From the NCBI RefSeq assembly GCF_000014785.1, contig NC_008340.1, positions 2,610,001-2,642,000 of the forward strand: 32,000 nucleotides of DNA, read 5' to 3'. Below, one piece after another: positions 1,544 through 22,646 of this stretch. The notes below the pieces were generated by a model. The model saw only the letters and a list, made by a program, of their open reading frames with translations, made no database searches and was not told where the DNA came from. Position 1 is the stretch's first letter. Each line of letters opens with the position of its first letter. The position numbers were made by a program, and so were the translations under genes. Source of the DNA: Alkalilimnicola ehrlichii MLHE-1 (GTDB lineage Bacteria > Pseudomonadota > Gammaproteobacteria > Nitrococcales > Halorhodospiraceae).

Positions 1544-2193
1544 CGGTGGGGGCACCCCCCGTCATCGTGATGAGTGCAGGCCCTCCCCCCGGCATCGCGA
1601 GGGCCGAAGGCCCGTGGCGATCCAAGGCGGTAGACTGCCACGTCGGCTTCGCCTCCTCGCAGTGACGGTGTGGGCAACACCCCCCGTCATCGCGAGGGCC
1701 GAAGGCCCGTGGCGATCCAAGGCGGTAGACTGCCGCGTCGGCTTCGCCTCCTCGCAGTGACGGTGTGGGCAACACCCCCCGTCATCGCGAGGGCCGAAGG
1801 CCCGTGGCGATCCAAGGCGGTAGACTGCCACGTCGGCTTCGCCTCCTCGCAGTGACGGTGGGGTAACACCCCCGTCATCGCGAGGGCCGAAGGCCCGCGG
1901 CGATCCAGGGCGGTAGACTGCCACGTCGGCTTCGCCTCCTCGCAGTGACGGTGGGGGCAACACCCCCCGTCATCGCGAGGGCCGAAGGCCCGCGGCGATC
2001 CAGGGCGGTAGACTGCCACGTCGGCTTCGCCTCCTCGCAGTGACGGTGGGGGCGGATCCGCGCTCGCAGTGACGGTGGGGGCCACCACCACCCCGTCCTC
2101 GCGATGACAGGGGTGTTGCCCCCTCCCCGTCCTCGCGAGGAGCGCCCCCTCCCCCCGTCATCGCGAGGAGCGCAGCGACGTGGCGATCCACAC
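1536..2193 (+). repeat. Hairpin-repeat array A1: 5 full about 94-bp units plus degenerate 3'-arm and type-B units
   Basis: GTCATCGCGAGGGCCGAAGGCCCG starts at 1686, 1781, 1874 and 1969 (period 93-95). An earlier unit lies at about 1587-1670. The tail CCGTCATCGCGAGGAGCGCAGCGACGTGGCGATCCACAC ends near 2193. Confidence 0.92.
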
Positions 2194-2294
2194 GTCAGCC
2201 AAAACACAACGGCATCGGCATCAACACATATCGTCGCGTTATGCGCCAAACACGATACTATTGATTTATGCCTCATAGCACATAAACTATCATC

Positions 2295-2546
2295 ATGATC
2301 GATCTCGCCCGCACGCCGAAGCAGGTCGGCAACCTCATCCGTCGAAGCCGGAAGCAACAGGGCCTTACCCAACAAGCGCTTGGGGCGAAGGCCGGTTACC
2401 GGCAGGAGACCATCTCGCTCATCGAGAATGGCCATCCGGCCGCCAAGCTGGAAACCCTCCTGGCTATCCTCGCCGCGCTCGATCTCGAACTCCGGATCGC
2501 ACCACGCTCCAAGGGAAGCGCCGCTGACATCGAGGACCTCTTCTGA
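2295..2546 (+). CDS. hipB: XRE-family HTH antitoxin, HipB-like (83 aa)
   Basis: HTH core QQGLTQQALGAKAGYRQETISLIENG. Its stop overlaps the hipA start (TGATG). An AT-rich leader lies upstream (2216-2294). Confidence 0.8.
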   Translation: MIDLARTPKQVGNLIRRSRKQQGLTQQALGAKAGYRQETISLIENGHPAAKLETLLAILAALDLELRIAPRSKGSAADIEDLF

Positions 2547-3859
2547 TGCCCCGGCGTCGGCGCCACCCTCCGCTACACGTCCTGCTGAACAACCGCCACG
2601 TCGGCCAGCTCCAAAAGGCGGTGGACGGTGCAATCAGTTTTACCTACGAGCAAAACTGGCTGGACTGGGACCACGCCCTACCCGTCTCGCTCTCCCTTCC
2701 CCTCCGCGAAGACCCCTACCGGGGTGCACCGGTGGCGGCAGTGTTCGACAACCTCCTGCCCGATGCCGAGCCGCTCCGCCGCCGCGTTGCCGAGCGCGTT
2801 GGCGCCGAGGGCACCGACGCCTACAGCCTGCTCTCAGCCATCGGCCATGATTGCGTCGGTGCCCTGCAATTCGTCGGCCCCGACGCCCCGGCCCCCGGCG
2901 ACACCACCCAAATTTCCGGCCAGGTCATTGACGAGGACGACATCGGGAGGCTGCTCCGGGGGCTGGCCCAGGCCCCACTGGGGCTGGACCGCGACGAGGC
3001 ATTCCGGATCTCCATTGCCGGGGTGCAGGAGAAGACCGCCCTGCTCCGGCATGAAGGCCGCTGGCTAAAACCCCACGGCACAACCCCGACCAGCCACATC
3101 CTCAAGCCTCAGATCGGCCAGTTGCCGAACGGCATCGACCTGTCCAACAGCGTCGAGAACGAATACTACTGCCTCAAACTGGCTGCCGCCTTCGGGTTGC
3201 CCGTCAACAGGGCCGAGATCCACACCTTTGGGCCCACCCAAGCACTCGTCGTCGAGCGCTTCGATCGCCACTGGACCCACGACGGCCGCCTGCTCAGACT
3301 CCCGCAGGAGGACTGCTGCCAGGCCCTATCCGTCCCGCCAACACGCAAGTACCAGACCGAGGGTGGCCCCGGTATCGTGCAACTTCTTGAACTGCTCAAC
3401 GGCAGCGACACCCCGGCCAAAGACCAGGCGACCGTCTTCAAGGCACAGATCTTCTTCTGGCTGATCGGCGCTACCGACGGGCACGCAAAGAACTTCAGCC
3501 TGTTTCTGCGGCCACAGGGCGCGTTTCGCCTGACCCCGCTGTACGACATCCTGACCGTCCAGCCGAGCCTTGCCGGCCGGCAAATCGAACGCAAGCAGAT
3601 GAAACTGGCCATGGCCGTGGGGCGCGGAAACCGCTACCGGATCCATGAAATCCAGGGCCGCCATTTCCTACAGACCGGCGCCGCCGCCCGCCTGCCGCGC
3701 ACCTTGGCCACCAACGTCATCGAGGACATAGTGACCCGCGCGGACAACGCCATCACGCAGGTCGAAAGCGCCTTGCCCCCCGACTTCCCCCCGGCAATCC
3801 ACGAAAGCGTGAAGGCGGCCATCGCCGGGCGCCTGGGGGTATTGCAGAGGGCGGGGTGA
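2546..3859 (+). CDS. hipA: HipA-family serine/threonine kinase toxin (437 aa), apparently intact
   Basis: Motifs ISIAGVQEKTALL, catalytic-loop-like GATDGHAKNFSLF and LTPLYDILT. The length matches HipA and the gene is coupled to hipB. Confidence 0.9.
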   Translation: MPRRRRHPPLHVLLNNRHVGQLQKAVDGAISFTYEQNWLDWDHALPVSLSLPLREDPYRGAPVAAVFDNLLPDAEPLRRRVAERVGAEGTDAYSLLSAIGHDCVGALQFVGPDAPAPGDTTQISGQVIDEDDIGRLLRGLAQAPLGLDRDEAFRISIAGVQEKTALLRHEGRWLKPHGTTPTSHILKPQIGQLPNGIDLSNSVENEYYCLKLAAAFGLPVNRAEIHTFGPTQALVVERFDRHWTHDGRLLRLPQEDCCQALSVPPTRKYQTEGGPGIVQLLELLNGSDTPAKDQATVFKAQIFFWLIGATDGHAKNFSLFLRPQGAFRLTPLYDILTVQPSLAGRQIERKQMKLAMAVGRGNRYRIHEIQGRHFLQTGAAARLPRTLATNVIEDIVTRADNAITQVESALPPDFPPAIHESVKAAIAGRLGVLQRAG

Positions 3860-3864
3860 GTGAA

Positions 3865-4296
3865 GGCTTCCCCCCGTCATCGCGAGGGCCGGAGGCCCGT
3901 GGCGATCCAGAGCGGTAGACTGCCACGTCGGCTTCGCCTCCTCGCAGTGACGGTGGGGGCGATTTTCCGCTTCCGGCACAGTCAAGTTCTTCAAGAGAGG
4001 GCCGGAGGCTTTCCCCCCCGTCATCGCGAGGGCCGAAGGCCCGTGGCGATCCAGGGCGGTAGACTGCCGCGTCGGCTTCGCCTCCTCGCAGTGACGGTGG
4101 AGGTAGCCTGCCGCTTCCTGCACCGCCCAGTTGTTCAAGAGTCCCGTAGGGGCGTGGCAGTTCAGGGCGGCGGGTGGATCGCCGCGTCGCTGCGCTCCTC
4201 GCGATGACGGGGAGGGGCTGCGCTCCTCGCGATGACGGGGAGGTGCTGCGCTCCTCGCGATGGCGGGGAGGGGCTGCGGGCCTCGCAATGGCGGGG
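3865..4296 (+). repeat. Hairpin-repeat array A2: 2 full units, two copies of a 37-bp insert module, then inverted type-B and short units
   Basis: Full units at about 3871-3958 and 4015-4098. TTCCGCTTCCGGCACAGTCAAGTTCTTCAAGAG sits at 3960-3997 with a diverged copy at 4099-4141. Reversed GGATCGCCGCGTCGCTGCGCTCCTCGCGATGACGGGG is followed by 28-bp reiterations to about 4296. Confidence 0.9.
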
Positions 4297-4437
4297 TGGT
4301 GGTGCTTTGGGCATCGCGGGGGCGGGGGCGTTTGCGGCGCGGAGGATGGTGCTATGATGCTCATAAGGTCGTGCATTTTTAGTATAAAATAGCTATATAG
4401 TGCACTTTTTCCGATCGCTCTACGGAGAACGAGCCCA

Positions 4438-5559
4438 ATGAAAAAGAAGAACACCCTCACCACCCCCCTCATGCTTTCAGGACTGCTGGTCGGCTCTGCC
4501 TTCACCCTGAGCGGGTGCGTGAGCAGTTCCTCCAGCAGTGGGGACGACGCCACCGGCCCGCAGCATGACAGCCAAGGCGTGTTTGCCGCCGGGGCGCCGC
4601 TGAATAACGAGCAGGAGCTCGACGACGTCATCGCAGCGGCCAACCGGGCCGTCGGCGAGGACGGGGTTGAGCAATTCCTTGATGAGTTGGAAGGTGCAAT
4701 CTTCGTCAAGAGCGTCGATGTGGCCGGTGCCTCGACCACCGATGACGCCGATCGCACCACGGCAGCCCGCGACCGGCTGCGCGAGCGTGCCGGCAGGTGG
4801 CGCCAGGAGGACGCACCGGACCGGGTCATCGCCGCCACCGTCCAGCAGGACGACTGCCCCAACGGCGGCCATATCGTCATCACCAGTGACAGCACCGAAA
4901 ACGACCGTTACGAGCGCTGGGATACCACCGTGGCGTTCCACGGCTGCGCGGTGAACACGCCCTCCTGGGGTGACGTGGTGGTGAACGGGCAGCTCGACGA
5001 AACCTGGGAGGAGTCCTGGGGCGATGAAAACTTCGAGAACTACTCCGTCCACTTCGATATCACCGGCAGCGCCGCCGGGGGTGATCTGGTCCTCTCCGGC
5101 GAGGAACACTGGGGCATCCGCGCTCGGTCGGGCGACGTTTTCTTCAGCGAGCAGGTCCGCATCCCGCGGCTCGAGTTCCTGGCCGGCGAGCACTACATCG
5201 GGTTCCTGGACGTGGACCTGAACTACGTGGAGCGAGAGGTGGAGGAGCAGGGGACCACCCGGTACCCCTACGAAGACCACTGGAGCGGTCGCATCGGCAC
5301 CTCCGGCATGCAGGGCCACATCGCGCTGGATACCCCGAAAACCGTCGCCGGGCCGAACTACGATGCCTGCCCCACAGAGGGCGAGTTGACCATCAGCGGC
5401 AATGGCACCGCCTCCGTGCTCTTCGGGATGGACACCGGCATCTCCAACGCAGAAGTCGCCCTGGTGATCAACAACGCGCTCAGCCAAACCTGGGATGACT
5501 GCGACGACTTCTTCGACGAGTTCGACCTGCTCGAAGGCATCTTCCACGGCGGCCTGTAA
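4438..5559 (+). CDS. Hypothetical acidic lipoprotein (373 aa)
   Basis: Signal peptide with lipobox MKKKNTLTTPLMLSGLLVGSAFTLSGC followed by a Ser-rich linker. GGAGAA RBS upstream. No family recognised. Confidence 0.7.
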   Translation: MKKKNTLTTPLMLSGLLVGSAFTLSGCVSSSSSSGDDATGPQHDSQGVFAAGAPLNNEQELDDVIAAANRAVGEDGVEQFLDELEGAIFVKSVDVAGASTTDDADRTTAARDRLRERAGRWRQEDAPDRVIAATVQQDDCPNGGHIVITSDSTENDRYERWDTTVAFHGCAVNTPSWGDVVVNGQLDETWEESWGDENFENYSVHFDITGSAAGGDLVLSGEEHWGIRARSGDVFFSEQVRIPRLEFLAGEHYIGFLDVDLNYVEREVEEQGTTRYPYEDHWSGRIGTSGMQGHIALDTPKTVAGPNYDACPTEGELTISGNGTASVLFGMDTGISNAEVALVINNALSQTWDDCDDFFDEFDLLEGIFHGGL

Positions 5560-5575
5560 GCCCACCTCAGCACCC

Positions 5576-5599
5576 GGCCCCGGGGGGTTCCCCGGGGCC
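5576..5599 (+). terminator. GC-rich hairpin downstream of the lipoprotein gene (possible terminator, no U-tract)
   Basis: GGCCCCGGGG-GGTT-CCCCGGGGCC, a perfect 10-bp stem 17 nt after the TAA stop. No T-run follows, so an intrinsic-terminator role is uncertain. Confidence 0.35.
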
Positions 5600-5654
5600 C
5601 GTGCCGACACCCTCACCGCATTCCAGCCTCAGTCCGGTACCGGTTCAACGGTCG

Positions 5655-5792
5655 CTATCGCCGCCGCGGCGGCCAGGCCAGGCTGAAGTCCCCGTCGTTA
5701 AAGGCCACCGGCAGGTCGGTCTCGTTCAGTCCGCCCACCGCCTGGTAGCGCTCGCGACGGACCACGAGACAGGCGGCGGTCACCGCCCAGTC
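5655..5792 (-). pseudogene. Internal fragment of a family-2 glycosyltransferase (45 codons between two stops)
   Basis: The minus-strand translation DWAVTAACLVVRRERYQAVGGLNETDLPVAFNDGDFSLAW matches the conserved GT2 block (xxACLxVRRxxxxxVGGxxExxxVAxNDxDxxL). It has no start and is bounded by TAG on both sides. Confidence 0.45.
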
Positions 5793-5840
5793 CTAGCACC
5801 ACGCCCCCGTGCTGCGGGCGCTGCACAAGGGGTGGCCGGG

Positions 5841-6227
5841 ATGATCAGCGTATCCATCGTCAGCCACCGCCACGGCACCATGGTGGCCCGGCTGGTCGAC
5901 GCCCTGCTGGCCCTGCCGGAGGTGGGTCAGGTGGTGCTCACCCTCAACCGCCCGGACTGGGTGGCGGGCCTGTTCATCCTGGTGCGGGCACCGGCCTACC
6001 AGGCGGTGGGCGGCTTCGACGAGGACTACTTCCTCCACTACGAAGACGTGGGCCTCTGCGCCCGCCTCTGGGCCGCCGGCCACCCGGTCGCCCTGGACTG
6101 CAACGTCAGCATCAGCCACGACGCCCAATACCGCAGCCACCGGGACCCCATCCACTTCCTCTGGCACGTCGGCAGCCTACTGCGCTACCTCCGCAAACAC
6201 CAAGGCGGCGCCCGCCGCCCGCAGTAA
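5841..6227 (+). pseudogene. Family-2 glycosyltransferase with a large internal deletion (128 aa left)
   Basis: The N-terminal GT2 start MISVSIVSHRHGTMVARLVDALLALPEVGQVVLTLN joins directly to the C-terminal block DWVAGLFILVRAPAYQAVGGFDEDYFLHYEDVGLCARLWAAGHPV. About 90-100 aa, including the DxD region, are missing. The stop lies in repeat-like sequence. Confidence 0.55.
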
Positions 6228-6244
6228 TCGCGGGGCACCACCTA

Positions 6245-6549
6245 CCCCGTCATCGCGAGGGCCGAAGGCTTTCTCCCCGTCATCGCGAGGGCCGAAGGCT
6301 TTCTCCCCGTCATCGCGAGGGCCGAAGGCCCGTGGCGATCCAGAGGGGTAGACTGCCACGTCGCTTCGCTCCTCGCAGTGACGGTGGGGGCGGATCCGCG
6401 CTCGCAGTGACAGTGGGGGGCGGATCCGCGCTCGCAGTGACAGTGGGGGGCCACCAACGCCCCGTCATCGCGAGGAGCGAAGCGACGCGGCGATCCACAC
6501 CCCGCCATGGACTGCCACGGCCCTACAGGGCACGCAGTGACGGTGGGCC
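6245..6549 (+). repeat. Hairpin-repeat array A3: 2 short 30-bp units, 1 full unit, 2 3'-arm units, 1 type-B unit
   Basis: CCGTCATCGCGAGGGCCGAAGGCTTTCTCC x2, then a full unit, GGCGGATCCGCGCTCGCAGTGACAGTGGGG x2, then CCGTCATCGCGAGGAGCGAAGCGACGCGGCGATCCACAC... A degenerate 3'-arm motif already begins at about 6219. Confidence 0.92.
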
Positions 6550-7265: not shown

Positions 7266-7592
7266 TCCGTCATCGCGAGGGCCTCCTCCCCCGTCATCGC
7301 GAGGGCCGAAGGCTTTCCCCCCGTCATCGCGAGGGCCGAAGGCTTTCTCCCCGTCATCGCGAGGGCCGAAGGCCCGTGGCGATCCAGAGGGGTAGACTGC
7401 CACGTCGCTTCGCTCCTCGCAGTGACAGGGGGCGCACCCCCCGTCATCGCGAGGGCCGAAGGCCCGTGGCGATCCAGGGCGGTAGACTGCCACGTCGGCT
7501 TCGCCTCCTTGCAGTGACGGGGTGGCCCCTCCCCCGTCATCGCGAGGAGCGCAGCGACGCGGCGATCCATACCCCGGCATGGACTGCCACGC
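7266..7592 (+). repeat. Hairpin-repeat array A4: 3 short units, 2 full units, 1 type-B unit
   Basis: Same unit types as A3. The type-B end CCGTCATCGCGAGGAGCGCAGCGACGCGGCGATCCATACCCCGGCATGGACTGCCAC lies at about 7535-7592. Confidence 0.92.
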
Positions 7593-9160: not shown

Positions 9161-9701
9161 CCCCGTCATCGCGAGGGCCGAAGGCTTTCCCCCCGTCATC
9201 GCGAGGGCCGAAGGCTTTCCCCCCGTCATCGCGAGGGCCGGAGGCCCGTGGCGATCCAGAGGGGTAGACTGCCGCGTCGGCTTCGCCTCCTCGCAGTGAC
9301 GGGGTGGCCCCTCCCCCCGTCATCGCGAGGGCCGGAGGCCCGTGGCGATCCAGGGCGGTAGACTGCCGCGTCGGCTTCGCCTCCTCGCAGTGACGGGGTG
9401 GCCCCTCCCCCCGTCATCGCGAGGGCCGGAGGCCCGTGGCGATCCAGGGCGGTAGACTGCCGCGTCGGCTTCGCCTCCTCGCAGTGACGGGGTGGCCCCT
9501 GCCCCGTCATCGCGAGGGCCGGAGGCCCGTGGCGATCCAGAGGGGTAGACTGCCGCGTCGGCTTCGCCTCCTCGCAGTGACGGGGTGGCCCCTCCCCCCG
9601 TCATCGCGAGGGCCGAAGGCCCGTGGCGATCCAGGGCGGTAGACTGCCGCGTCGGCTTCGCCTCCTCGCAGTGACGGGGTGGCCCCTCCCCCCGTCATCG
9701 C
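9161..9701 (+). repeat. Hairpin-repeat array A5: 2 short units, 5 full units, and a 6th unit cut after CCGTCATCGCA
   Basis: Full-unit starts at 9225, 9319, 9413, 9506 and 9600 (period 93-94). The last unit is truncated at 9701, where the hipB-like coding sequence begins. Confidence 0.93.
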
Positions 9702-9953
9702 AAGGGGTGGACCCAGGAAGAACTCGCTGAGCGAGTCGGCGTTGGCGTGATCACGATCCGCCGGGTTGCCAAGGGCTCCCCCCGGGTGGCCATCGGCACT
9801 TACTTTGAAGCGGCCGCACTGGTTGGGGTTTCACTGTTCACCGATGATCCGGACAGGCTCAAACGCGAGCATGCAACCCAGCAGGAACGGCTGACGCTGC
9901 TACCCAAGCGAGTCCGTCGTCAAACACCAGAGCCCCTCGACGATGATTTCTAG
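9702..9953 (+). pseudogene. 5'-truncated XRE/HipB-like antitoxin gene (N-terminus replaced by the repeat array)
   Basis: The frame reads ...KGWTQEELAERVGVGVITIRRVAKGSPRVAIGTYFEAAALVGVSL, i.e. helix 2-3 of an XRE HTH without helix 1 or a proper start. Only an internal GTG at 9747 is available. Confidence 0.6.
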
Positions 9954-10185
9954 CAACCGCGCTTATGTCTGGATCTGGCTGCCCGGCCAGACATCGCCTG
10001 TAGTAGCCGGACTTGTTGAGCGCGACGACCAAGACCGGTACCGCTTTGCCTATGGTCGGCGCTATCTGGCCCGTGAAGATGCAATCAGCCTGTATCCCGA
10101 CGAACTGCCCTGCTGTAGTCATCGCCGCCAGCGGCATGTGCGAATGACGAACCACGGCTTCCCCAGCATTTCCCTAACGGCCTGA
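9943..10185 (+). pseudogene. HipA N-terminal fragment (80 codons, homology lost after about 55 aa)
   Basis: AYVWIWLPGQTSPVVAGLVERDDQDRYRFAYGRRYLAREDAISLYPDELP is the HipA N-terminal subdomain pattern. The kinase core is absent. Confidence 0.65.
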
Positions 10186-10331
10186 AACATGCAGCAGCGG
10201 TGTTAGACTAAACCGAGGTCAAAACCCTCATCGCCACGTGGTGGATCAAAGGCCAGAACATTGCCCACGAGCCCCAGGAATACACAAGGCTCCGAGAAAA
10301 ATCGCCGTCCTCAAGAATTGCCCATGGAGAC

Positions 10332-10766
10332 ATGATGCGGACTCGAGCCCGCCCCAAAAGGAATTCCAAGCGCCGGCTACATCCTGAATTGACCGTCGAG
10401 CGGCGCCGGGCACTCGCCCAGTGTGTCAAATATGTCGGCAGCCCCTTGCACAAGCGCAACCCCGGTGATTTCGGGCTGACGCCGCCCGTTGCGGCCCGTC
10501 CCGGGAAGAGCCTGTGTGATGATGTCTCGATCTTCGAGCGAGACAAGGCTCAGGTGCTGCTGCGAGAGGGAGTGCAAGCGGGCCTTGTAAGCCGTGATGC
10601 CGACGAGGGCTTCCCGCGCCACATCTGGATGGTTCACGAAGGGCGAGTCATCGAGGCACGTTGTGACAACATGGAAGCCGGAACCTACCATGGCTACCCC
10701 CTGGAAGCCGACGATCCCATGGCCGATGCTGTAAAGCGCGAATGGAGCCGGAGGCAAGCAGAATGA
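10332..10766 (+). CDS. Hypothetical basic 144-aa protein, first gene of an unknown two-gene operon
   Basis: GGAGA RBS. Arg/Lys-rich N-terminus. Conserved-looking blocks YVGSPLHKRNPGDFGL and GTYHGYPL. Its stop overlaps the next start (ATGA). No family recognised with confidence. Confidence 0.6.
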   Translation: MMRTRARPKRNSKRRLHPELTVERRRALAQCVKYVGSPLHKRNPGDFGLTPPVAARPGKSLCDDVSIFERDKAQVLLREGVQAGLVSRDADEGFPRHIWMVHEGRVIEARCDNMEAGTYHGYPLEADDPMADAVKREWSRRQAE

Positions 10767-12097
10767 GCGATACCCTGCGATTCGACTGGGAGTGGCTGGC
10801 CTACCCAGAATTGCCTGCTGAAGAGGCTGTGACCTTTGCTGACCTGAGCATCCGGCTCAACGACAAGGCCATGACTCGCCTCTACGACGTGGCCGCCAAG
10901 ACCGAGCGCGACAACCTTTTCGCTGCCGCGTACCCGTTGGCTCAATTTCTAGCGGAAAACTGGTGGCGCATCCGCTGGGAGCCCGCGCCGGCCAGTCTTT
11001 CAAACGCGGGGCCACAGTGGCGTCTGGCGCATAACATCGCAGCCGCTGGTGCCGGCTATGTCTGGCCCAACATCACCTTCCACGGCGATGGCGAGCGGAT
11101 GTTCATGCACGTCGGACCCCACACCTCTGAGTCCTCCGCCGTGCAGTTCGTCTCGGAGGGAAATGGTGTGCTCGACGCCGCAATGTTCGAAGCAGAGGCC
11201 GATCGTTTCATGGAAGGCGTCTTGGCCCGACTGCAAGCCTGTGGCCACCCGGATACGGAGCTCGAACAGCTCTGGCGAGCGGTCCAGGCCGAGCGTTCCA
11301 GCAACGAAGACTGTGAGCGGCGGCGGCTGGAGGCCATGGCGGGCTTCGATCCCGACGAAGCGCCAGAGGCCATGCTGGACGAACTGTTGCAGCTCGAACA
11401 GCGCCTTGGGGTTTCAGCCATCCGAGAATTGGCTGCGGCCTCGCGGGCAAACACACTGGACCATGTGCGAACCCTGGAAGAGGCACTTTGTGCTCGGGGC
11501 CTTCGGTATCAGGTCCCGGATACGAGTCGAATGAGGATTGAATGGCCTGCCCCGCCATGGCGCAGGGCTGTCGAAGTCGCAAAGGCCGCTCGACAGGCCT
11601 GGGGCCTGAACAATGGCCCACTGGATAACACGCAGCTCGCCGCCATCGTGGATCTACCGCGCGAGCAGCTTGACTCTTCGGCACCTGAAGCAGTGCCCTA
11701 CAGCGCGAGCCTGCGCGGGGGGGAAGAGGGCGACAGACTAGTGTTCAGAACCGGCCATCGGCACGGACGCCGCTTCGCAATCGGTCGCCTGATGGGTGAC
11801 GCCTTCTACTCACCCGGGGAAGGGGGGGCACTGGCGGCCGCAACGGATGCCCGGACGGGACGCCAGAAGTTTCAGCGGGCCTTCGCGCAGGAGCTGCTGT
11901 GCCCATTCGAGGCATTGAGCGACTTTCTCAACCTGGGCCAGGACTGGGATGCATGTGACGATATCACCCCCCCGAACGAGGACCGCATCGAAGAGGCAGC
12001 GGAGTATTTCGACGTCTCACCGGTGCTCGTTCAGAGCACGCTTGTCAACCACAACGTCTTGCCCCGCGACGTACTCGAAATAACGGACGCCGCCTGA
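10763..12097 (+). CDS. Hypothetical 444-aa protein whose C-terminal region resembles an ImmA/IrrE (M78) domain lacking the HExxH motif
   Basis: GGAGG lies 8 nt upstream of ATG 10763. N-terminal block AAAYPLAQFLAENWWRIRWEP. The C-terminal GRRFAIGRLMGDAF...RQKFQRAFAQELLCPFEAL aligns with the M78 pattern RRFTLAHELGHLL...E.EANRFAAELLMP. Confidence 0.65.
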   Translation: MSDTLRFDWEWLAYPELPAEEAVTFADLSIRLNDKAMTRLYDVAAKTERDNLFAAAYPLAQFLAENWWRIRWEPAPASLSNAGPQWRLAHNIAAAGAGYVWPNITFHGDGERMFMHVGPHTSESSAVQFVSEGNGVLDAAMFEAEADRFMEGVLARLQACGHPDTELEQLWRAVQAERSSNEDCERRRLEAMAGFDPDEAPEAMLDELLQLEQRLGVSAIRELAAASRANTLDHVRTLEEALCARGLRYQVPDTSRMRIEWPAPPWRRAVEVAKAARQAWGLNNGPLDNTQLAAIVDLPREQLDSSAPEAVPYSASLRGGEEGDRLVFRTGHRHGRRFAIGRLMGDAFYSPGEGGALAAATDARTGRQKFQRAFAQELLCPFEALSDFLNLGQDWDACDDITPPNEDRIEEAAEYFDVSPVLVQSTLVNHNVLPRDVLEITDAA

Positions 12098-12121: not shown

Positions 12122-12619
12122 CTGTCATCGCGAGGGCCGAAGGCTTTCCCCCGTCATCGCGAGCCCCCCACCCCGCTGCGCGGGCCCGAATCAACGAGGA
12201 ACGGGGCACCCCCGGTCATCGCGAGGGCCGAAGGCCCGTGGCGATCCAGGGCGGTAGACTGCCGCGTCGGCTTCGCCTCCTCGCAGTGACGGTGGGGGCG
12301 ACTTTCCGCTTCCGGCACAGTCAAGTTCTTCAAGAGGGCCGAAGGCCCGTGGCGATCCAGGGCGGTAGACTGCCACGTCGGCTTCGCCTCCTCGCAGTGA
12401 CGGGGTGGCCCCTCCCCCCGTCATCGCGAGGGCCGAAGGCCCGTGGCGATCCAGAGGGGTAGACTGCCACGTCGGCTTCGCCTCCTCGCAGTGACGGTGG
12501 GGATGGGGCCCCGCTCGCAGTGACGGTGTGGATGGGCCCCCGCTCGCAGTGACGGTGGGGGCGGGTCCGCTCCTCGCGGTGACGGTGGGGGCGGGTCCAC
12601 GCTTGCAGTGGCGATGAGG
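12122..12619 (+). repeat. Hairpin-repeat array A6: 1-2 short units, 3 full units (one carrying the 37-bp insert module), 4 3'-arm units
   Basis: Full units lie between about 12214 and 12495. TTCCGCTTCCGGCACAGTCAAGTTCTTCAAGAG is at 12300-12337. Reiterated GCTCGCAGTGACGGTGKGG-type units run from 12496 to 12619. Confidence 0.92.
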
Positions 12620-12648
12620 CACCACCACCCAAAAAGGAGAACACCACC

Positions 12649-14031
12649 ATGGACGACCCCACCCTCCTCCACCACGGCGGCGCTGACGGCGTCACCGGCA
12701 GTTGCCACCAACTCTACGCCAGCCCCGACCACTCACTCCTCATCGACTGCGGCCTCTTCCAAGGCGAAGACGCCGGCCCCGACCCCCTCGCCCAACACAC
12801 CGTCGACTTCGACGTCGACACCCTCCAGGCCCTCGTCCTCACCCACGTCCACATCGACCACGTCGGCCGGCTGCCCTACCTGCTGGCCGCCGGCTACCGC
12901 GGCCCCATCCTCTGCAGCCACCCCTCCGCCCACCTGCTGCCGCTGGTCATTGACGACGCCCTGCGCATCGGCTTCACCCGTGACGGCCAACTCATCGCGC
13001 GCTTCCAGCAGCAGGTCCAAAACCAACTGACCCCCCTCAAATACAGCCGCTGGCACACCGTCACCGACAACCGCCACCTCACCCTCAAGGTCCGCCTGGA
13101 GCGCGCCGGCCACATCCTCGGCTCCGCCTACGTCAAAGTCGCCATCCGGGACAAACGCACCGGCCGCACACACCGCACCGTCTTCTCAGGCGACCTGGGC
13201 GCCCCCGGCTCGCCGCTGCTGCCCGCCCCGCAATCGCCCCACCACGCCGACCTCCTCGTCCTGGAGGCCACCTACGGCGACCGCAGCCACGAAAACCGCG
13301 ACCAGCGCCGCCACCGCCTGCGCCAGGCCATCGAACACGCCGTGCAGGACGGCGGCACCGTCATCATCCCCGCCTTCAGCATCGGCCGCACCCAGGTGCT
13401 GCTCCACGAGCTGGAAGCGCTCACCCACACCGCCCAAGGCCCCTGGCGCCACCTGCGCATCATCGTCGACTCCCCCCTGGCCGCCCGCTTCAACCGCGTC
13501 TACCGCCGCCTGAAACCCTACTGGGACCAAGAGGCCAGAAAACGGGCCCGACAAGGCCGCCACCCCCTCAACTTCAGCCGCCTGCACACCGTCGACAGCC
13601 ACGCCCAACACCAACACACCGTCACCACCCTGGCCCAGGGCGGCCACCCGGCCGTGGTCATCGCCGCCAGCGGCATGTGCGCCGGCGGCCGCGTCGTCAA
13701 CTACCTGAAAGCCATGCTCGGCGACCCACGCCACCACGTGCTGTTCGTCGGCTACCAAGCGGAAGGCACCCCCGGGCGGGACATCCAGCGCTACGGCCCA
13801 ACCGGCGGCTGGGTAGACCTGGACGGAGAACGGTTCGACATCCGCGCCGGCGTCACCACCATCGGCGGCTACTCCGCCCATGCAGACCAACAGGACCTAC
13901 TGCGGTTCGTACAACAGATGAAGCGCCCACCCGGCACCATCCGACTGGTGCACGGCAGCGCCCGCGCCCGGGAGACACTGGCCAACGCCCTCACCCGGCA
14001 GGGCCATACCGTGACCCAGGGAGGGTCATGA
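12649..14031 (+). CDS. Beta-CASP family metallo-beta-lactamase-fold nuclease (RNA-metabolising MBL hydrolase), 460 aa
   Basis: AAAGGAGAA RBS. LLIDCGLFQG, HxHxDH motif LTHVHIDHVGRLPYL, later SGDLG, IPAFSIGRTQ, GYSAHADQ and RLVHGS, typical of beta-CASP enzymes. Confidence 0.85.
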   Translation: MDDPTLLHHGGADGVTGSCHQLYASPDHSLLIDCGLFQGEDAGPDPLAQHTVDFDVDTLQALVLTHVHIDHVGRLPYLLAAGYRGPILCSHPSAHLLPLVIDDALRIGFTRDGQLIARFQQQVQNQLTPLKYSRWHTVTDNRHLTLKVRLERAGHILGSAYVKVAIRDKRTGRTHRTVFSGDLGAPGSPLLPAPQSPHHADLLVLEATYGDRSHENRDQRRHRLRQAIEHAVQDGGTVIIPAFSIGRTQVLLHELEALTHTAQGPWRHLRIIVDSPLAARFNRVYRRLKPYWDQEARKRARQGRHPLNFSRLHTVDSHAQHQHTVTTLAQGGHPAVVIAASGMCAGGRVVNYLKAMLGDPRHHVLFVGYQAEGTPGRDIQRYGPTGGWVDLDGERFDIRAGVTTIGGYSAHADQQDLLRFVQQMKRPPGTIRLVHGSARARETLANALTRQGHTVTQGGS

Positions 14032-14657: not shown

Positions 14658-15788
14658 ATGACATCGGAATCGGACCTGTGTAGCCGAATTTCACGCGTGA
14701 GCATCCGCGGGTTCCGTAGCCTAGCCTGTGTCGAGAACCTTGAGCTCCCGCAACTAGCGGTCCTGATTGGGGCAAACGGATCGGGCAAATCCAACCTCAT
14801 CCGATTCTTCGAGATGCTGAGCTACTCGCTCAAGGGCCGGAACCTTCAGCAGTTCGTGATCGAAAAAGGGGGCGGTGACGACCAGCTCTTTTTCGGAGCG
14901 CGGACCACGTCCCGCCTGGAAGCAGAGATCGCGCTGGAGACTGAGCAGGGCACCAATGAGTACCGGATGGCCCTGACCCACGTCGCACCAGACTCCCTGG
15001 CCTTCGCCGAAGAGGCTTTCCGGTTCTCCCGGCACGACCGCGAAGGCAGCAGCGACTGGATTCACCTCCCCATGCCGGCTCAGGAATCGGGCCTGCCGGT
15101 GGCCGCAGCGGATAGTGGTCAGCGGTCGCGGCGCACAGCACGCACGCTCCTTTACCTGCTGCGCAACTGCGCCACCTTCCAGTTTCATGACACCTCGGCA
15201 AAGGCCAGTCTGAACATGCGCTGGGATGAGAGCGAAAACGCACGCATGCGCTCGGATGGCGGAAACCTGGCCCCCATACTGCTGCATCTTTCTCAGGAGC
15301 ATCCCCGGCGTTACCGGCTCATCACGCGGCAGATTCAACGCGTTCTCCCCGTGTTCGAAGACTTCGACCTGCAATCGACGGGGGGCAAGGTGTTGCTGCG
15401 CTGGCGCGCCCGAAACAGCGACAACACCTTCGGGCCGCATCTGACATCGGACGGCTCGCTGCGACTGTTTTGCCTATTCACCCTGCTCAATCTGCCGGGG
15501 GAAATGCTCCCGGACGTACTCATGATCGACGAACCGGAACTGGGCCTTCATCCGCACGCTATCGCCCTGACCGCCGATATGCTCAAGAGCCTCTCCGTCC
15601 ATCGGCAAGTCTTCATCGCCACCCAGTCACCACTGATGGTCGACGCCTTCGACGTGGATAACATCCTCGTCGCCAGCCTGAAAGACGGCGCAACAGACCT
15701 GACGCCCATGGACCGTGACGAATACCGGGTCTGGCTTGAAAGCGGCTACCAGCCCTCGGATCTATGGCTCAAAGAACCGGTGGGCTGA
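14658..15788 (+). CDS. AAA_21/ABC-type (SMC-like) ATPase, 376 aa, defence-associated type
   Basis: Walker A LIGANGSGKSNL close to the N-terminus, distal Walker B LLMIDEPELGLHP and signature-like TSDGSLR. This split-ABC architecture is typical of OLD/AbiL/PARIS-type ATPases. Confidence 0.85.
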   Translation: MTSESDLCSRISRVSIRGFRSLACVENLELPQLAVLIGANGSGKSNLIRFFEMLSYSLKGRNLQQFVIEKGGGDDQLFFGARTTSRLEAEIALETEQGTNEYRMALTHVAPDSLAFAEEAFRFSRHDREGSSDWIHLPMPAQESGLPVAAADSGQRSRRTARTLLYLLRNCATFQFHDTSAKASLNMRWDESENARMRSDGGNLAPILLHLSQEHPRRYRLITRQIQRVLPVFEDFDLQSTGGKVLLRWRARNSDNTFGPHLTSDGSLRLFCLFTLLNLPGEMLPDVLMIDEPELGLHPHAIALTADMLKSLSVHRQVFIATQSPLMVDAFDVDNILVASLKDGATDLTPMDRDEYRVWLESGYQPSDLWLKEPVG

Positions 15789-15791
15789 GTG

Positions 15792-16354
15792 ATGAGTTCC
15801 AGTGTTCGATTGCTTGTGGTCTGCGAGGGACAGACAAGGGCGGAGGAAACGTCAACATCGAGCGACTGGCTATCCACCTGGCCAACGAATACCCCAACCA
15901 TGACTTTGTCACCACGTTGGTCGACCTCTACGGGTTCAGTGACCGGGAAGGACGAAGTCGGACAGAGCTTGAAGAGGCCATCCGCGAAGCCGTCCTAAGC
16001 CGTCGTCGAGACATTCAGACGGATAGAGTCATCCCGTATGTGCAGCAGTATGAATTCGAAGCGCTGCTGTTCAGCGATATTCAGGGTTTTCAATGGGTGG
16101 TTGATGGCTGGTCCACTGGGGCAGAGCGCCAACTTCAGAGCATCGTCGATAATTACTCGGACCCCGAGCAAATCAACGACAACCCGACCACCGCGCCCTC
16201 GAAACGCCTGGAAGCCATCTTCCGCGGTTACTATCGGAAGACCGAACATGGCCCGATCATTGCCGAAGAAATCGGGTTGGCAGTGATCCGCAGTCAGTGC
16301 CCAGGCTTCGACGGTTGGATAACCAAACTGGAAGGCCTTAATCGACCGCGTTAA
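15792..16354 (+). CDS. DUF4276-family (TOPRIM-like) protein interrupted by an apparent single-base frameshift near 15849-15851
   Basis: The N-terminal hallmark MSSSVRLLVVCEGQTRAEET is in frame 3 (15792-15851). The rest, VNIERLAIHLANEYPNHDFVTTLVDLYGF...EFEALLFSD...PSKRLE, is in frame 2 to TAA 16354. The only frame-2 ATG (15764) overlaps the ATPase gene and lacks the VxCEGxTE block. Confidence 0.7.
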
Positions 16355-16956: not shown

Positions 16957-17019
16957 CGCCGCCGACGCAGCAAGAGCCGCCACCGTCCAACCGCGCGGCA
17001 CACAGTGCAAAGAGGAGAA

Positions 17020-18123
17020 ATGGTGTCCTTCACGTCCATTAATTGGCCCAACCGCATCCTGGTCACCGGCGGGGCCGGCTTCATCGGCTCGGCGCTGGTC
17101 CGCCAGCTCATTGCCGAGACCGACAGCACCGTCATCAACGTCGATGCCCTCACCTACGCCGGCAACCCCGAATCCCTGGCAGAGGCCCGCCACCATCCGC
17201 GCCATGTCTTCGAGCAGGAGGACATTCGCAACCGCCCCGCGTTGGACCGCCTCTTCCGCGAACACCGCCCCGACGCCGTCATGCACCTGGCCGCGGAATC
17301 CCACGTGGACCGCTCCATCGAGGGCCCCGCCGCCTTCATCGAGACCAACGTCACCGGCACCCAGAACCTGCTGGAAGCGGCCCGGGAATACTGGCAGGCA
17401 CTGGAGCCGGCGGCCCGGGAGCGCTTCCGCTTCCACCACATCTCCACGGACGAGGTCTACGGCGACCTGGGCCCCAACGACCCGGCCTTCACCGAAGAGA
17501 CCCCCTACGCCCCCAGCTCGCCCTACTCGGCCAGCAAGGCCGGCAGTGACCACTTGGTCCGCGCCTGGCACCACACCTACGGCCTGCCCGTACTGCTCAC
17601 CAACTGCTCCAACAACTACGGCCCCTACCAGTTCCCGGAAAAGCTCATCCCCCTGATGATCCTCAATGCCCTCGAAGGCAAGCCCCTGCCGGTGTACGGC
17701 CAGGGCGACAACGTCCGCGACTGGCTGCACGTGGAGGATCACGCCCAGGCACTGCGCCGGGTGCTCGAAGCCGGCCGGCCCGGGCGCACCTACAACATCG
17801 GGGGCCGGGCGGAGCGCACCAACCTGGAAGTCGTCCACGCCATCTGCGCGCATCTGGACGAACTGCGCCCCCGTCCATCCGGCCGGCACGAGGCGTTAAT
17901 CCAATTCGTAACAGACCGCCCCGGCCATGATCGGCGCTACGCCATCGACGACAGCCGGATCAGCCAGGAACTCGACTGGCAGCCGCAGGAGAGCTTCGAA
18001 TCGGGCCTGCGCCGAACCGTCGAGTGGTACCTGGAGAACACCGAGTGGGTGCAGCGGGTGCAAAGCGGCGCCTACCGGGAATGGCTGGAGACCAACTACG
18101 GCCATCGCGGGGTGGCCGAATGA
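17020..18123 (+). CDS. rfbB: dTDP-glucose 4,6-dehydratase
   Basis: [23 protein letters not shown] Rossmann motif, [19 protein letters not shown] and [15 protein letters not shown] (YxxxK). Confidence 0.92.
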
Positions 18124-19040
18124 GGACACTGCTCTTCGGCCCCAATGGACAGGTGGGCTGGGAACTGCGCCGTTCGCTGGCGCCCCTGGGGGAGCTGATC
18201 CCCCTCGGCCGTCACGAATGGCAGGGCCTGCGGGGCGATCTCACCGACAAGGATGCCATCGCCCACGCCATCCGCTCACTGCGCCCGGATCTCATCGTGA
18301 ACGCGGCGGCCTACACCGCCGTGGACCAGGCCGAGTCCGAACCCGAACAAGCGCGGCTGATCAACGCCACCGCACCCGGCGTCATGGCCGAGCTCGCCCG
18401 CGAGCAGCAAGCCCTGTTCATCCACTACTCCACGGACTACGTCTTCGACGGCAGCGGCGACCGCCCGTGGCACGAGGACGACCCAACGGCCCCCTTAAAT
18501 GTCTATGGCCAGACCAAGCGGGAAGGCGAGGAGGCCGTTCGCGCCGCGGACGGCCACCACCTCATCTTCCGCACCGCCTGGGTCTATGCCGCCCGGGGCC
18601 ACAACTTCATCCGCACCATGATCCGCCTGGCTTGCCAACGCGACACCCTGCAAGTCATCAACGACCAGCACGGCGCACCCACCGGGGCGGAACTCATCGC
18701 CGACGTCACGGCGCACGCCGCACGCACCGCATCAACCCGCCCCGACCTGCGCGGCACCTACCACCTGACCGCCGCCGGCGAGACCACCTGGCACGGGTAC
18801 GCCCGCTTCGTCATCGAACAGGCCCGCGCGGGCGGCGCACCCGTACGCGTCGCCCCGGAGGCCATCGAAGCCGTCGCTACCGACGCCTTCCCCACGGTCG
18901 CCCGCCGCCCGCACAACTCACGGCTGGACGGTCACAAGCTGGAAACCACCTTCGGCCTAAAGCGCCCCGACTGGCGCAGCGGCGTCGCCCGGGCGCTACA
19001 GGAAATGGACATCTCGCACACCCAGGGGAGGCCCGACTGA
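18120..19040 (+). CDS. rfbD: dTDP-4-dehydrorhamnose reductase
   Basis: ATGA overlap with rfb[38 protein letters not shown] and YGQTKREGE are typical RmlD motifs. Confidence 0.9.
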
Positions 19041-19921
19041 TGAACCGCAAGGGCATCATCCTGGCCGGGGGCAGCGGCACGCGACTGCATCCGGCCACGC
19101 TTGCCATCAGCAAGCAACTACTGCCAGTCTACGACAAGCCGATGATCTACTACCCGCTCAGCACCCTGATGCTGGCGGGTATTCGCGATATCCTCATCAT
19201 CTCCACCCCGCAGGACACCCCGCGCTTCGAGCAACTGCTGGGCGATGGCGAGCAGTGGGGGCTTAACCTGAACTACGCCGTGCAACCCTCGCCGGACGGT
19301 CTGGCCCAGGCGTTCATCATCGGCGAGGCGTTCATCGGCGACGACCCCTGCGCCCTGGTCCTGGGCGACAACATCTTCTACGGCCACCATTTCGACGAGC
19401 TGCTCGGCAACGCCATGGAACGCGAGGACGGCGCAACGGTCTTCGCCTACCACGTCCACGACCCGGAACGCTACGGCGTGGCCGAGTTCGACCGCGACGG
19501 CAAGGTGCTCTCCCTGGAGGAAAAGCCCGAGCGACCGAAATCCAGCTACGCCGTCACCGGCCTGTACTTCTACGACAACGACGTGGTCGACATGGCGAAG
19601 GATCTAAAGCCCTCCGCCCGCGGCGAGCTGGAGATCACCGACCTCAACATCGCCTACATGAACGCCGGCAAGCTCGACGTGGCGATCATGGGCCGCGGCT
19701 ACGCCTGGCTGGACACTGGCACGCACGACTCCCTGCTGGACGCCAGCCAGTTTATCGCCACCCTCGAACACCGCCAGGGCCTTAAGGTCGCCTGCCCGGA
19801 AGAGATTGCCTACCGCCGCGGCTGGATCACCGCCGAGACCCTTGAGGGCCTGGCCCAACCGCTGCTCAAAAACGGCTACGGCCAATACCTCCGGCGCGTG
19901 CTGCAAGACACCGTATTCTGA
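19040..19921 (+). CDS. rfbA: Glucose-1-phosphate thymidylyltransferase
   Basis: [54 protein letters not shown] is nearly canonical RmlA. The start overlaps the rfbD stop by 1 nt. Confidence 0.95.
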
Positions 19922-19942
19922 TCCGACCACGGCAAGGACATC

Positions 19943-20491: not shown

Positions 20492-20814
20492 TCAGCTCCC
20501 CCGCACCGGCTGCTGTCGTCCGCCGGCGGCGACGGCCTAAAGGCGCGACTACAAGACAGGAACAGGCGCCGTAGGAGCGACTTCAGCCGCGAAACGGATG
20601 TGATGCCGCGGTGTGGCTGATCTGTTCGCGTGCGAAGATGCCCCCGACCACGCCTGGAAACACACCAATGACCTATATCATTGGATCCTTATCCCGATGA
20701 CATCGCTCTGGTACCCTTGCGCTTTCCCCAAGGGCTGACGCCCTCGTGGCACCGCTCGACATTGTCGGGTCGACGACGCGCGCTGTCATGACGGTAGAAG
20801 AGGCCGCCACCCCC

Positions 20815-22623: not shown

Positions 22624-22646
22624 CTGACACAAACAGGGAAAGCCCG

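What the first reader, a model, noticed from the sequence alone, without database searches (positions are those of the whole stretch)
9690..10331. Second hipBA locus reduced to two stubs, with its 5' breakpoint inside a repeat unit
The sixth unit of A5 stops after CCGTCATCGCA (9701). The sequence then continues in frame as the middle of an XRE HTH (WTQEELAERVGVGVITIRRVAKG...), so the promoter, start codon and first helix are gone. The overlapping downstream gene keeps only about 55 residues of the HipA N-terminal subdomain before homology ends. An unrelated 150-bp spacer follows. This is direct evidence that the arrays take part in rearrangements or deletions. It also shows turnover of a module that is duplicated in function by the intact hipBA at 2295-3859.
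Basis: seen in the sequence. Interest (0 to 1): 0.5.

Follow-up and report, generated by a model that had tools for sequence, protein, structure and literature searches.

The report
Decayed hipBA toxin-antitoxin remnant beside repeats
This is the dead remnant of a second hipBA toxin-antitoxin gene pair in Alkalilimnicola ehrlichii: the front of the antitoxin gene and almost all of the toxin gene have been deleted, and one cut lies inside a repeat array, so it is an ordinary pseudogene with a cleanly mapped history.

Summary
The window is Alkalilimnicola ehrlichii MLHE-1; the 80-aa ORF at 9943-10185 is Mlg_2310.

- **hipB remnant:** 9702-9953 encodes residues 30-112 of a 112-aa HipB-like family.
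- **hipA remnant:** 9943-10110 encodes residues 1-56 of its roughly 417-aa HipA partner. Both are 83-84% identical to Halomonas chromatireducens.
- **Normal form:** 29 of 44 species-representative loci carry the full-length pair. Short versions elsewhere each have a different lesion, so they are independent decay, not conserved small genes.
- **5' junction:** a REP-like unit (...CCGTCATCGC) meets hipB codon 29 at a 3-bp CGC microhomology (9699-9701). A second A. ehrlichii strain has the identical junction but two rather than five 94-bp units.
- **3' junction (10110-10117):** it is followed by 25 bp identical to the beta-CASP gene at 13657-13681, so the "spacer" is not wholly unrelated.
- **Sister strain:** an IS21-family element carrying a group II intron sits exactly on that 3' junction.
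- **Relation to the intact hipBA (2295-3859):** it belongs to a distant subfamily, so the stub is not a recent duplicate.

Verdict: ordinary toxin-antitoxin decay. The evidence that arrays serve as breakpoints is modest but real. Interest is low.

The parts
9161..9245 (+). Left part of array A5: 30-bp 'left-arm' units (CCCCGTCATCGCGAGGGCCGAAGGCTTTCC), 2.8 copies
   Evidence: Tandem Repeats Finder; sequence
9218..9701 (+). Five full 94-bp hairpin-forming REP-like units plus the first 14 nt of a sixth. The sister strain has only two full units here.
   Evidence: the centroid fold pairs CCGTCATC/GCGAGG with CCTCGC/GTGACGG
9699..9701 (+). 5' junction. CGC is shared by the repeat unit (CAT CGC GAG GGC) and the parental hipB (CTA CGC AAG GGx). 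The similarity is 7 of 8 over CGCRAGGG.
   Evidence: codon-registered comparison with L003, L004 and the upstream repeat units
9702..9953 (+). hipB remnant: codons 30-112 plus the stop of a 112-aa HipB-like XRE antitoxin. The promoter/operator, start codon, N-terminal 13 aa and helix 1 are missing.
9747..9953 (+). 68-aa ORF from an internal GTG (inside HTH helix 3). Annotation pipelines call this as a gene; it is unlikely to be a real gene.
9943..10110 (+). hipA remnant: codons 1-56 of a HipA of about 417 aa. The 11-nt overlap with the hipB stop is the same as in intact relatives.
9943..10185 (+). Annotated ORF Mlg_2310 (80 aa): 56 HipA residues followed by 24 residues read from unrelated DNA
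10109..10113 (.). CCTGC. In sister strain CP184336.1 this is duplicated as the target site of an IS21-family element carrying a group II intron. The site is empty in this window.
10118..10142 (+). 25-bp filler identical to 13657-13681 in the beta-CASP gene (motif PAVVIAASGMC). Weaker similarity begins at 10108 (32/35).
10143..10331 (+). Spacer of unknown origin, probably the upstream region of the 144-aa gene at 10332-10766. It matches nothing else in the window or in any fetched locus other than same-species copies.
13647..13681 (+). Segment of the resident beta-CASP gene (12649-14031) that matches the filler
2295..3859 (+). Intact hipBA of a different subfamily (hipB 2295-2546, hipA 2546-3859), used for comparison

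Best explanation
The segment is a non-functional remnant of a once-complete hipBA type II toxin-antitoxin cassette. The cassette belonged to the 112-aa HipB / roughly 417-aa HipA subfamily common in Halomonadaceae, Ectothiorhodospiraceae and Chromatiaceae.

**Shown.** At least two separate deletions occurred before the two sequenced A. ehrlichii strains diverged, and they left only the central 410 bp:
- The left deletion removed the right end of REP-like array A5, the hipB promoter/operator, and hipB codons 1 to about 28. It joined a repeat unit to hipB at a 3-bp CGC microhomology.
- The right deletion removed hipA codons 57-417, which include the whole kinase domain. Its junction carries a 25-bp filler identical to a gene 3.5 kb downstream.

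**Inferred.**
- Both junctions arose by microhomology-mediated illegitimate recombination or template switching.
- The array acted as a repeat-rich, hairpin-forming substrate, not as an active agent.
- Loss of the toxin was selectively favoured or neutral, as is usual for chromosomal toxin-antitoxin modules.
- The two ORFs that gene callers report (68 aa and 80 aa) make no functional product.

**Later events.** The array changed copy number (five versus two units). An IS21-family element inserted at the 3' junction in the other strain.
For: - **Identity and extent of both stubs:**
- **Architecture of intact relatives,** with the same 11-nt overlap between the two genes.
- **Family assignment:** the full-length relatives match solved HipA kinases and HipB.
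- **Upstream of the hipB remnant:** no start codon and an in-frame stop. No sigma-70-like promoter between 9100 and 10400. The AT-rich operator region seen upstream of relatives is absent.
- **Junction microhomology:**
- **What is missing from array A5:** three complete arrays in the window end in a conserved terminal element before the next cassette and, in the two arrays read in full, in right-arm units. A5 lacks both, which fits a deletion that started inside the array.
- **Age of the junctions:** both are identical in strain CP184336.1 at about 98% flanking identity.
- **Filler:**
- **Independent decay of the same module elsewhere:**
  - H. abdelmalekii: hipA cut at codon 52.
  - L008: nonsense codon in hipB, hipA deleted after codon 4.
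  - L009: internal deletion in hipA.
  - L017, L024, L028, L012: other lesions.
  - L055: hipA cut by a REP-flanked Y1 transposase.
  -.
- **Relaxed constraint:** a T-to-P change at the conserved GWT in the sister strain, and 3 non-synonymous versus 3 synonymous changes in the hipB remnant.
Against: - No genome with the intact cassette at this position was found, so the pre-deletion state is inferred. The closest full-length relatives are only 84-88% identical and lie in unrelated contexts.
- The exact 3' breakpoint cannot be placed more finely than 10110-10117.
- The hipA remnant shows 0 differences between the strains over 171 bp, against 6 in the hipB remnant. This could hint at constraint, but the counts are too small to interpret.
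- An IS21-family element landing exactly on the 3' junction in the sister strain is an unexplained coincidence.
- Expression was not tested.
Confidence: 0.8

Rival explanations
1. Patchwork insertion. No complete hipBA ever sat at this locus. The 410-bp hipB'-'hipA piece and the 25-bp beta-CASP piece were both copied in as filler during one template-switching repair event between array A5 and the 144-aa cassette.
For: The adjacent 25-bp filler, identical to a gene 3.5 kb away, shows that at least one template-derived insertion happened at this site. Both ends of the hipBA piece lie at short microhomologies.
Against: Searches with both stubs returned no full-length protein of this subfamily from A. 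ehrlichii, so no donor is known. A 410-bp filler is unusually long. The island consists of whole toxin-antitoxin and defence cassettes in the same orientation, which makes a resident cassette the simpler origin.
Confidence: 0.08
2. Active repeat-element mechanism. The 5' junction was made by the machinery that spreads the REP-like units, for example a REP-associated tyrosine transposase cutting at GTCATCGC, or by insertion or expansion of units into hipB. Passive microhomology-mediated deletion was not the cause.
For: - The junction falls right after the conserved left-arm motif GTCATCGC, where many partial units in these arrays also end.
- Array copy number differs between strains.
- In the sister strain the beta-CASP gene is also joined to an array fragment.
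- In an unrelated relative (L055), hipA is cut by a Y1 transposase flanked by its own REP hairpins.
Against: No Y1 transposase was found among the window ORFs scanned. The upstream half of hipB is not on the other side of the array, so a simple insertion is excluded. A 3-bp microhomology with 7/8 flanking similarity is sufficient for passive slippage.
Confidence: 0.12
3. Functional mini-genes. The 80-aa product acts like HipS, a stand-alone HipA N-subdomain antitoxin, and/or the 68-aa product acts as a truncated HipB tail that modulates the intact HipA at 2546-3859.
For: Stand-alone HipA N-subdomain proteins (HipS) exist in HipBST systems; this rests on established knowledge, and HipT structures appear among the PDB hits. 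The hipA remnant has no substitutions between the two strains. Both ORFs are called as genes by annotation pipelines.
Against: - Only 56 of the roughly 110-120 residues spanning the N-terminal domain remain, and the remnant scores in no Pfam or NCBIfam model.
- No hipT follows it.
- All relatives are fused full-length HipA proteins.
- Short versions elsewhere have different endpoints.
- The 68-aa ORF starts inside the recognition helix.
- The stub's family shows no detectable N-terminal similarity to the resident HipA.
- No promoter-like site is present.
Confidence: 0.03

Closest known systems
HipBA type II toxin-antitoxin modules (E. coli K-12 HipBA, Shewanella oneidensis HipAB; PDB 3dnv, 4pu3)
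   Same: An XRE-family HTH antitoxin gene lies immediately upstream of, and overlaps, a HipA kinase gene. Full-length relatives of the stub carry Couple_hipA and HipA_C domains and match solved HipA and HipB structures.
   Different: Only hipB codons 30-112 and hipA codons 1-56 survive here. There is no kinase domain, no complete HTH, and no promoter or start codon. The parental subfamily has a longer HipB (112 aa, with a C-terminal ...LLPKR...DDDF tail). It is only distantly related to the window's intact hipBA.
Decayed toxin-antitoxin loci and orphan antitoxins in chromosomal islands
   Same: The toxin is lost by deletion, frameshift or insertion-sequence hit, while fragments or the antitoxin persist. 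The same module shows at least five clearly degraded hipA genes next to an intact hipB among 44 species-representative loci. Several more occur in metagenome contigs.
   Different: Here the antitoxin is truncated as well, so nothing functional remains. One breakpoint lies in a repeat array, and the other carries a 25-bp filler.
REP / BIME / REPIN repeat clusters as substrates for rearrangement and insertion-sequence targeting
   Same: The units are extragenic imperfect palindromes in composite tandem clusters between convergently or co-oriented genes. Copy number differs between strains, and the clusters flank insertion/deletion polymorphisms.
   Different: The 94-bp units form unusually regular head-to-tail arrays, with separate 30-bp left-arm and 29-bp right-arm sub-arrays. 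No associated RAYT was seen in the window. No Rfam family matches.
HipBST tripartite systems (HipS = stand-alone HipA N-subdomain)
   Same: A short ORF carries HipA N-terminal sequence downstream of a hipB-like gene.
   Different: There is no hipT. Only about half of the N-terminal domain is retained, followed by 24 junk residues. The parental family is a fused HipA of about 417 aa.

Membership tests
HipB (XRE-family antitoxin of HipBA) | Complete Cro/C1-type helix-turn-helix domain (Pfam HTH_3) | tested here: not met
   Only profile positions 8-52 of 55 are matched and helix 1 is absent. Full-length relatives match positions 1-52 at residues 23-74.
HipB (XRE-family antitoxin of HipBA) | Own start codon and autoregulated promoter/operator upstream | tested here: not met
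   In-frame TGA at 9672-9674 and no start codon before the GTG at 9747. No promoter-like site between 9100 and 9760. The upstream DNA is repeat array.
HipB (XRE-family antitoxin of HipBA) | Homology to HipB proteins encoded next to hipA | tested here: met
   83% identity to residues 27-112 of the H. chromatireducens protein, which lies directly upstream of a full HipA. That protein matches PDB HipB 9u9g (E 7.6e-7).
HipA serine/threonine kinase toxin | HipA_C kinase domain with catalytic loop | tested here: not met
   The domain is absent. tblastn with a 417-aa relative finds only residues 1-56 at this locus and nothing else of this subfamily in the window.
HipA serine/threonine kinase toxin | N-terminal Couple_hipA domain | tested here: inconclusive
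   The stub itself gives no Pfam or NCBIfam hit. However, it is 84% identical to the first 56 residues of a HipA whose Couple_hipA domain is matched at residues 21-122. Less than half of the domain is therefore present.
HipS of HipBST | Stand-alone N-subdomain protein of about 100 aa followed by a hipT kinase gene | tested here: not met
   No kinase gene follows; the next genes are a 144-aa and a 451-aa protein with no Pfam or PADLOC hits. Relatives are fused HipA proteins.
REP / REPIN-type repeat arrays | Extragenic imperfect palindromes able to form hairpins, many copies, clustered | tested here: met
   41 copies of GTCATCGC against about 2 expected. Arrays lie between genes. The centroid fold pairs the two arms, with a modest z-score of -1.8.
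REP / REPIN-type repeat arrays | Associated RAYT (Y1 transposase) gene in the genome | not testable with these tools
   Only the 32-kb window and 16 kb of a sister strain were available. None of the ORFs scanned has Y1_Tnp.
Integron cassette array (attC sites) | attC with RYYYAAC / GTTRRRY core sites and a nearby IntI integrase | tested here: not met
   The 94-bp consensus contains neither GTT nor AAC. No tyrosine recombinase was found among the scanned ORFs. Units are head-to-tail with no cassettes between them.

The most novel reading that the evidence does not exclude
The REP-like arrays of this island may be the working parts of an integrase-free cassette-turnover system, not passive bystanders. 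Under this reading, units ending at GTCATCGC serve as preferred breakage and template-switch points. That would account for cassettes being gained, lost and truncated at array borders. Three observations fit: the hipB junction here, the beta-CASP junction in the sister strain, and the 2.5-kb cassette present in only one strain. It might also explain why a filler and an IS21-family insertion coincide at the other hipA junction.
Probability: 0.1. Interest if true: 0.55.

Novelty: new member of a known kind. Interest (0 to 1): 0.2.

Why it matters
- **Annotation.** Mlg_2310 and the 68-aa ORF called in the sister strain are pseudogene fragments of one hipBA module, not hypothetical proteins.
- **A dated example of toxin-antitoxin decay.** Both genes were cut before the strains diverged. 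The breakpoints are mapped to the base or to within a few bases, and they show microhomology and a filler segment.
- **Concrete, though circumstantial, evidence on the arrays.** The unusually regular REP-like arrays of A. ehrlichii serve as deletion endpoints and vary quickly in copy number.
- **No new biology.** None of this changes how HipBA or REP elements are understood.

Tried and rejected
1. **A degenerate REP hairpin at the 3' junction** (GTCATCGC...GCGAATGAC, 10118-10148). Rejected: the fold is no better than shuffles (z +0.29), and the GTCATCGC there belongs to the 25-bp beta-CASP-identical filler.
2. **The missing halves moved elsewhere in the window.** tblastn of full-length HipB and HipA against all 32 kb found nothing beyond the stubs and the distant intact HipA.
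3. **The region after the hipA breakpoint is the displaced 3' end of hipA (an internal deletion, as in L009).** No similarity in any frame.
4. **Integron attC interpretation of the arrays.** No core sites and no integrase.
5. **HipS-like stand-alone protein.** Rejected; see the membership test.
6. **Search for a close relative retaining the intact cassette.**
   - An exact-pattern scan of JGI metagenomes found nothing.
   - A protein-based scan gave at best 88% identity, in unrelated contexts without the A. ehrlichii repeats.
   - The species-representative genome scan did not return any Alkalilimnicola locus.
   - Logan contigs of the same species only repeat the truncated state.
7. **Other searches that returned nothing.**
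   - Rfam found no family in the window.
   - Literature searches for Alkalilimnicola with 'integron' or with 'repetitive extragenic' found nothing relevant.
8. **IS21-mediated adjacent deletion as the cause of the hipA truncation.** Rejected: the 5-bp target duplication is intact on both sides in the sister strain. The element therefore inserted into the already truncated sequence.

Full report
**Source and setting.** The 80-aa ORF at 9943-10185 is identical to Mlg_2310 of Alkalilimnicola ehrlichii MLHE-1. The first 16.5 kb of the window is an island of toxin-antitoxin and defence cassettes, all on the + strand.
- ParA-like gene.
- Intact hipBA at 2295-3859.
- Two genes of unknown function at 4438-6227.
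- DUF6364/PIN pair.
- MqsA-like group.
- The stubs examined here.
- A 144-aa/451-aa pair of unknown function.
- A beta-CASP nuclease gene.
- A HEC-01 pair.

Composite REP-like arrays separate the cassettes. GTCATCGC occurs 41 times against about 2 expected.

**Check of the observation.** Array A5 has 2.8 copies of a 30-bp unit and then 5.2 copies of a 94-bp unit. The sixth 94-bp unit follows the consensus only through ...CCCCCCGTCATCGC, which ends at 9701. From 9702 the same frame reads KGWTQEELAERVGVGVITIRRVAKGSPRVAIGTYFEAAALVGVSLF...DDDF and stops at 9951-9953.
- An in-frame TGA lies at 9672-9674. The first possible start codon is the GTG at 9747, inside HTH helix 3.
- Pfam HTH_3 covers profile positions 8-52 of 55 (E 1.7e-6). 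NCBIfam's HipB-coupled model TIGR03070 covers positions 15-58 of 58.
- The overlapping ORF 9943-10185 has no family hit of its own.

**What the stubs come from.** A database search with the HTH stub returned a tight family of 112-aa proteins from Halomonas, Billgrantia, Aidingimonas, Halorhodospira and purple sulfur bacteria, 75-88% identical for the closest members (alignment A2).
- In Halomonas chromatireducens the 112-aa gene overlaps by 11 nt a 417-aa HipA. Pfam matches Couple_hipA at residues 21-122 and HipA_C at 167-383.
- The window has the same 11-nt overlap (9943-9953).
- tblastn aligns window 9693-9950 with HipB residues 27-112 (83% identity) and 9943-10110 with HipA residues 1-56 (84% identity). 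No other fragment of either protein occurs in the 32-kb window.
- The full-length relatives match solved HipA kinases and HipB.

The locus therefore lacks hipB codons 1 to about 28 with everything upstream of them. It also lacks hipA codons 57-417, about 1.09 kb that includes the whole kinase domain.

- Of 44 loci found in species-representative genomes, 29 carry full-length hipB plus full-length hipA. Five have an intact hipB next to a clearly degraded hipA, each with a different lesion: L012 (1-258), L017 (pieces in two frames), L021 (1-52), L024 (4-47 plus 320-390) and L028 (3-71). Up to seven have no detectable hipA.
- The five closest JGI metagenome loci all have full pairs.
- The 68-aa database entries are artefacts of one internal GTG. 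P0035 is the same junction in a second A. ehrlichii strain. P0045 (L008) follows a TAG at codon 24. P0046 (L002) follows a 1-nt deletion, which could also be an assembly error.
- The short HipA_N entries end at different places. H. abdelmalekii ends at codon 52. L009 keeps 44 N-terminal residues plus the C-terminal tail. L002 is frameshifted and hipA continues in another frame. L055 is cut near codon 210 by a Y1 transposase flanked by its own REP hairpins.

The short forms are recurrent independent decay, not a conserved small-gene architecture.

**The 5' junction.** In codon register:

| Sequence | Bases across the junction |
|---|---|
| Relatives (L003/L004) | ...CGG CTA CGC AAG GGT TGG ACC (L003; L004 has AGG at the first codon and differs at two third positions) |
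| Repeat unit | ...CGT CAT CGC GAG GGC CGR AGG |
| Window | ...CGT CAT CGC AAG GGG TGG ACC |

The crossover lies within the shared CGC (9699-9701). The flanking similarity is 7 of 8 over CGCRAGGG, which is why Tandem Repeats Finder extends the array to 9706.

Three other arrays in the window end in a conserved terminal element, CCCCGTCATCGCGAGGAGCGCAGCGACGYGGCGATCCA, before the next cassette's own upstream region. The two read in full also carry right-arm-only units before it. A5 has neither. I infer a deletion that ran from inside a unit, or from the identical first 14 nt of the terminal element, through the promoter into hipB. If the sixth 'unit' was the terminal element, that deletion was roughly 200-250 bp.

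A simple insertion of repeats into hipB is excluded. The other side of the array abuts the stop codon of the 151-aa gene and carries no hipB sequence.

**The 3' junction.** HipA homology ends at codon 56 (10110). The next few bases cannot be assigned. Positions 10118-10142 are 25/25 identical to 13657-13681 inside the beta-CASP gene, which encodes PAVVIAASGMC, and 10108-10142 match 32/35 (E 6e-9).
- Both strains carry this filler.
- The sister strain's own beta-CASP copy differs at 2 of the 25 positions.
- The remaining 190 bp up to the 144-aa gene match nothing available and contain no promoter-like site.

A short templated filler is a signature of template-switching repair. A remnant of a lost paralogous cassette is the alternative, and I could not separate the two.

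**Comparison with a second strain (CP184336.1, locus L001).**
- Both junctions are identical there at about 98% flanking identity, so the decay predates the split.
- That strain has two full 94-bp units in A5, not five.
- It lacks window 3897-6400, a two-gene cassette, and has 367 bp of array in its place.
- Its beta-CASP gene is reduced to a patchwork by three deletions, the first of them joined to an array fragment.
- It carries an IS21-family element (istA and istB, inverted repeats TGTCAATGGCCA...) with a nested group II intron (Rfam RF00029 and RF01999). The element is inserted with a 5-bp duplication, CCTGC, equal to window 10109-10113, which is exactly the hipA/filler junction.
- Because the duplication is intact on both sides, the element entered the already truncated sequence. 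Why it landed on the junction is unexplained. For one insertion in 16 kb, the chance of falling within 5 bp of either junction is about 1 in 1000.
- Between the strains the hipB remnant has 3 non-synonymous and 3 synonymous changes, including T to P in the conserved GWT. The hipA remnant has none, and the spacer has two. These counts are too small to test selection.

**Relation to the intact hipBA.** The stub's subfamily and the hipBA at 2295-3859 are distant:
- 27% identity over the kinase core;
- no detectable similarity in the N-terminal domain;
- 33% identity over 27 residues for HipB.

The stub is therefore not a recent duplicate, and functional redundancy is an assumption.

**Verdict.**
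- This is a doubly truncated, promoterless and kinase-less hipBA remnant.
- The array was a deletion endpoint at a short microhomology. Strain comparison shows the arrays are unstable and border other rearrangements. Whether they act as agents or only as substrates is open.
- Toxin-antitoxin decay, orphan fragments and repeat-associated deletions are all well known. The finding corrects the annotation and gives a clean case history, not a new phenomenon.

Noticed in passing
window 10118-10142 and 13657-13681: A 25-bp perfect repeat: a piece of the beta-CASP gene (motif PAVVIAASGMC) sits directly after the hipA breakpoint, 3.5 kb upstream of the gene itself. The sister strain has the same filler, but its own beta-CASP copy differs at 2 of the 25 positions.
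   Followed up: partly
L001 8371-12688 (A. ehrlichii CP184336.1), inserted at window 10109-10113: An IS21-family element (istA, istB; inverted repeats TGTCAATGGCCA...) carries a nested group II intron (reverse transcriptase on the minus strand; Rfam RF00029 and RF01999). It is inserted with target duplication CCTGC exactly on the hipA/filler junction. The site is empty in MLHE-1.
   Followed up: partly
window 3897-6400 vs L001 4396-4762: A 2.5-kb segment holding two ORFs of unknown function (373 aa at 4438-5559 and 208 aa at 5601-6227; no Pfam or PADLOC hits) is present in MLHE-1. In the sister strain 367 bp of repeat array takes its place. Both edges of the difference lie in arrays.
   Followed up: partly
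L001 14700-14900 vs window 12134-13425: In the sister strain the beta-CASP gene is a patchwork pseudogene: window 12190-12773, 12833-13052 and 13173-13378 are deleted. The first junction joins an array fragment to the inside of the gene. This is a second case of array-adjacent 5' truncation.
   Followed up: partly
window 2155-2200, 6462-6500, 7533-7575: A conserved 'terminal element' (CCCCGTCATCGCGAGGAGCGCAGCGACGYGGCGATCCA) closes three of the arrays just upstream of the next cassette. The arrays have an ordered build: 30-bp left-arm units, then 94-bp hairpin units, then 29-bp right-arm units, then the terminal element.
   Followed up: partly
window 14658-16354: A two-gene candidate anti-phage system, HEC-01 (AAA_21 ATPase of 376 aa plus a DUF4276 protein of 196 aa). 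PADLOC E-values are 6e-110 and 2e-141.
   Followed up: no
window 10332-12097: An overlapping gene pair (144 aa and 451 aa) with no Pfam, NCBIfam or PADLOC hit, conserved in the sister strain with 5 synonymous and 2 non-synonymous changes in the first gene. It may be an uncharacterised toxin-antitoxin or defence pair.
   Followed up: no
L055 2560-3340 (JGI metagenome contig Ga0643512_0045916): In the closest full-length relative of the HTH stub, hipA is cut near codon 210 by a 216-aa Y1_Tnp (RAYT-like) gene. The gene is flanked on both sides by the hairpin CAGAGGGTCAGACCCTTAAGCGGATTTAAGGGTCTGACCCC. This is an independent REP-element hit on the same toxin gene.
   Followed up: partly
L004/L021 5326-5538 (Halorhodospira abdelmalekii NRRN01000044.1): A full-length 112-aa HipB-like gene is followed by a hipA cut at codon 52, within four codons of the A. 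ehrlichii breakpoint but with different downstream sequence. Several other lineages also keep only 44-71 N-terminal codons.
   Followed up: partly
window 17000-29400: Downstream of the island lies a glycan biosynthesis cluster. It includes dTDP-rhamnose genes, an ABC exporter, Polysacc_synt_2, DegT, a CMP-sugar cytidylyltransferase, NeuB and a sulfotransferase. An rve-type transposase follows at 29600-30658 on the minus strand.
   Followed up: no
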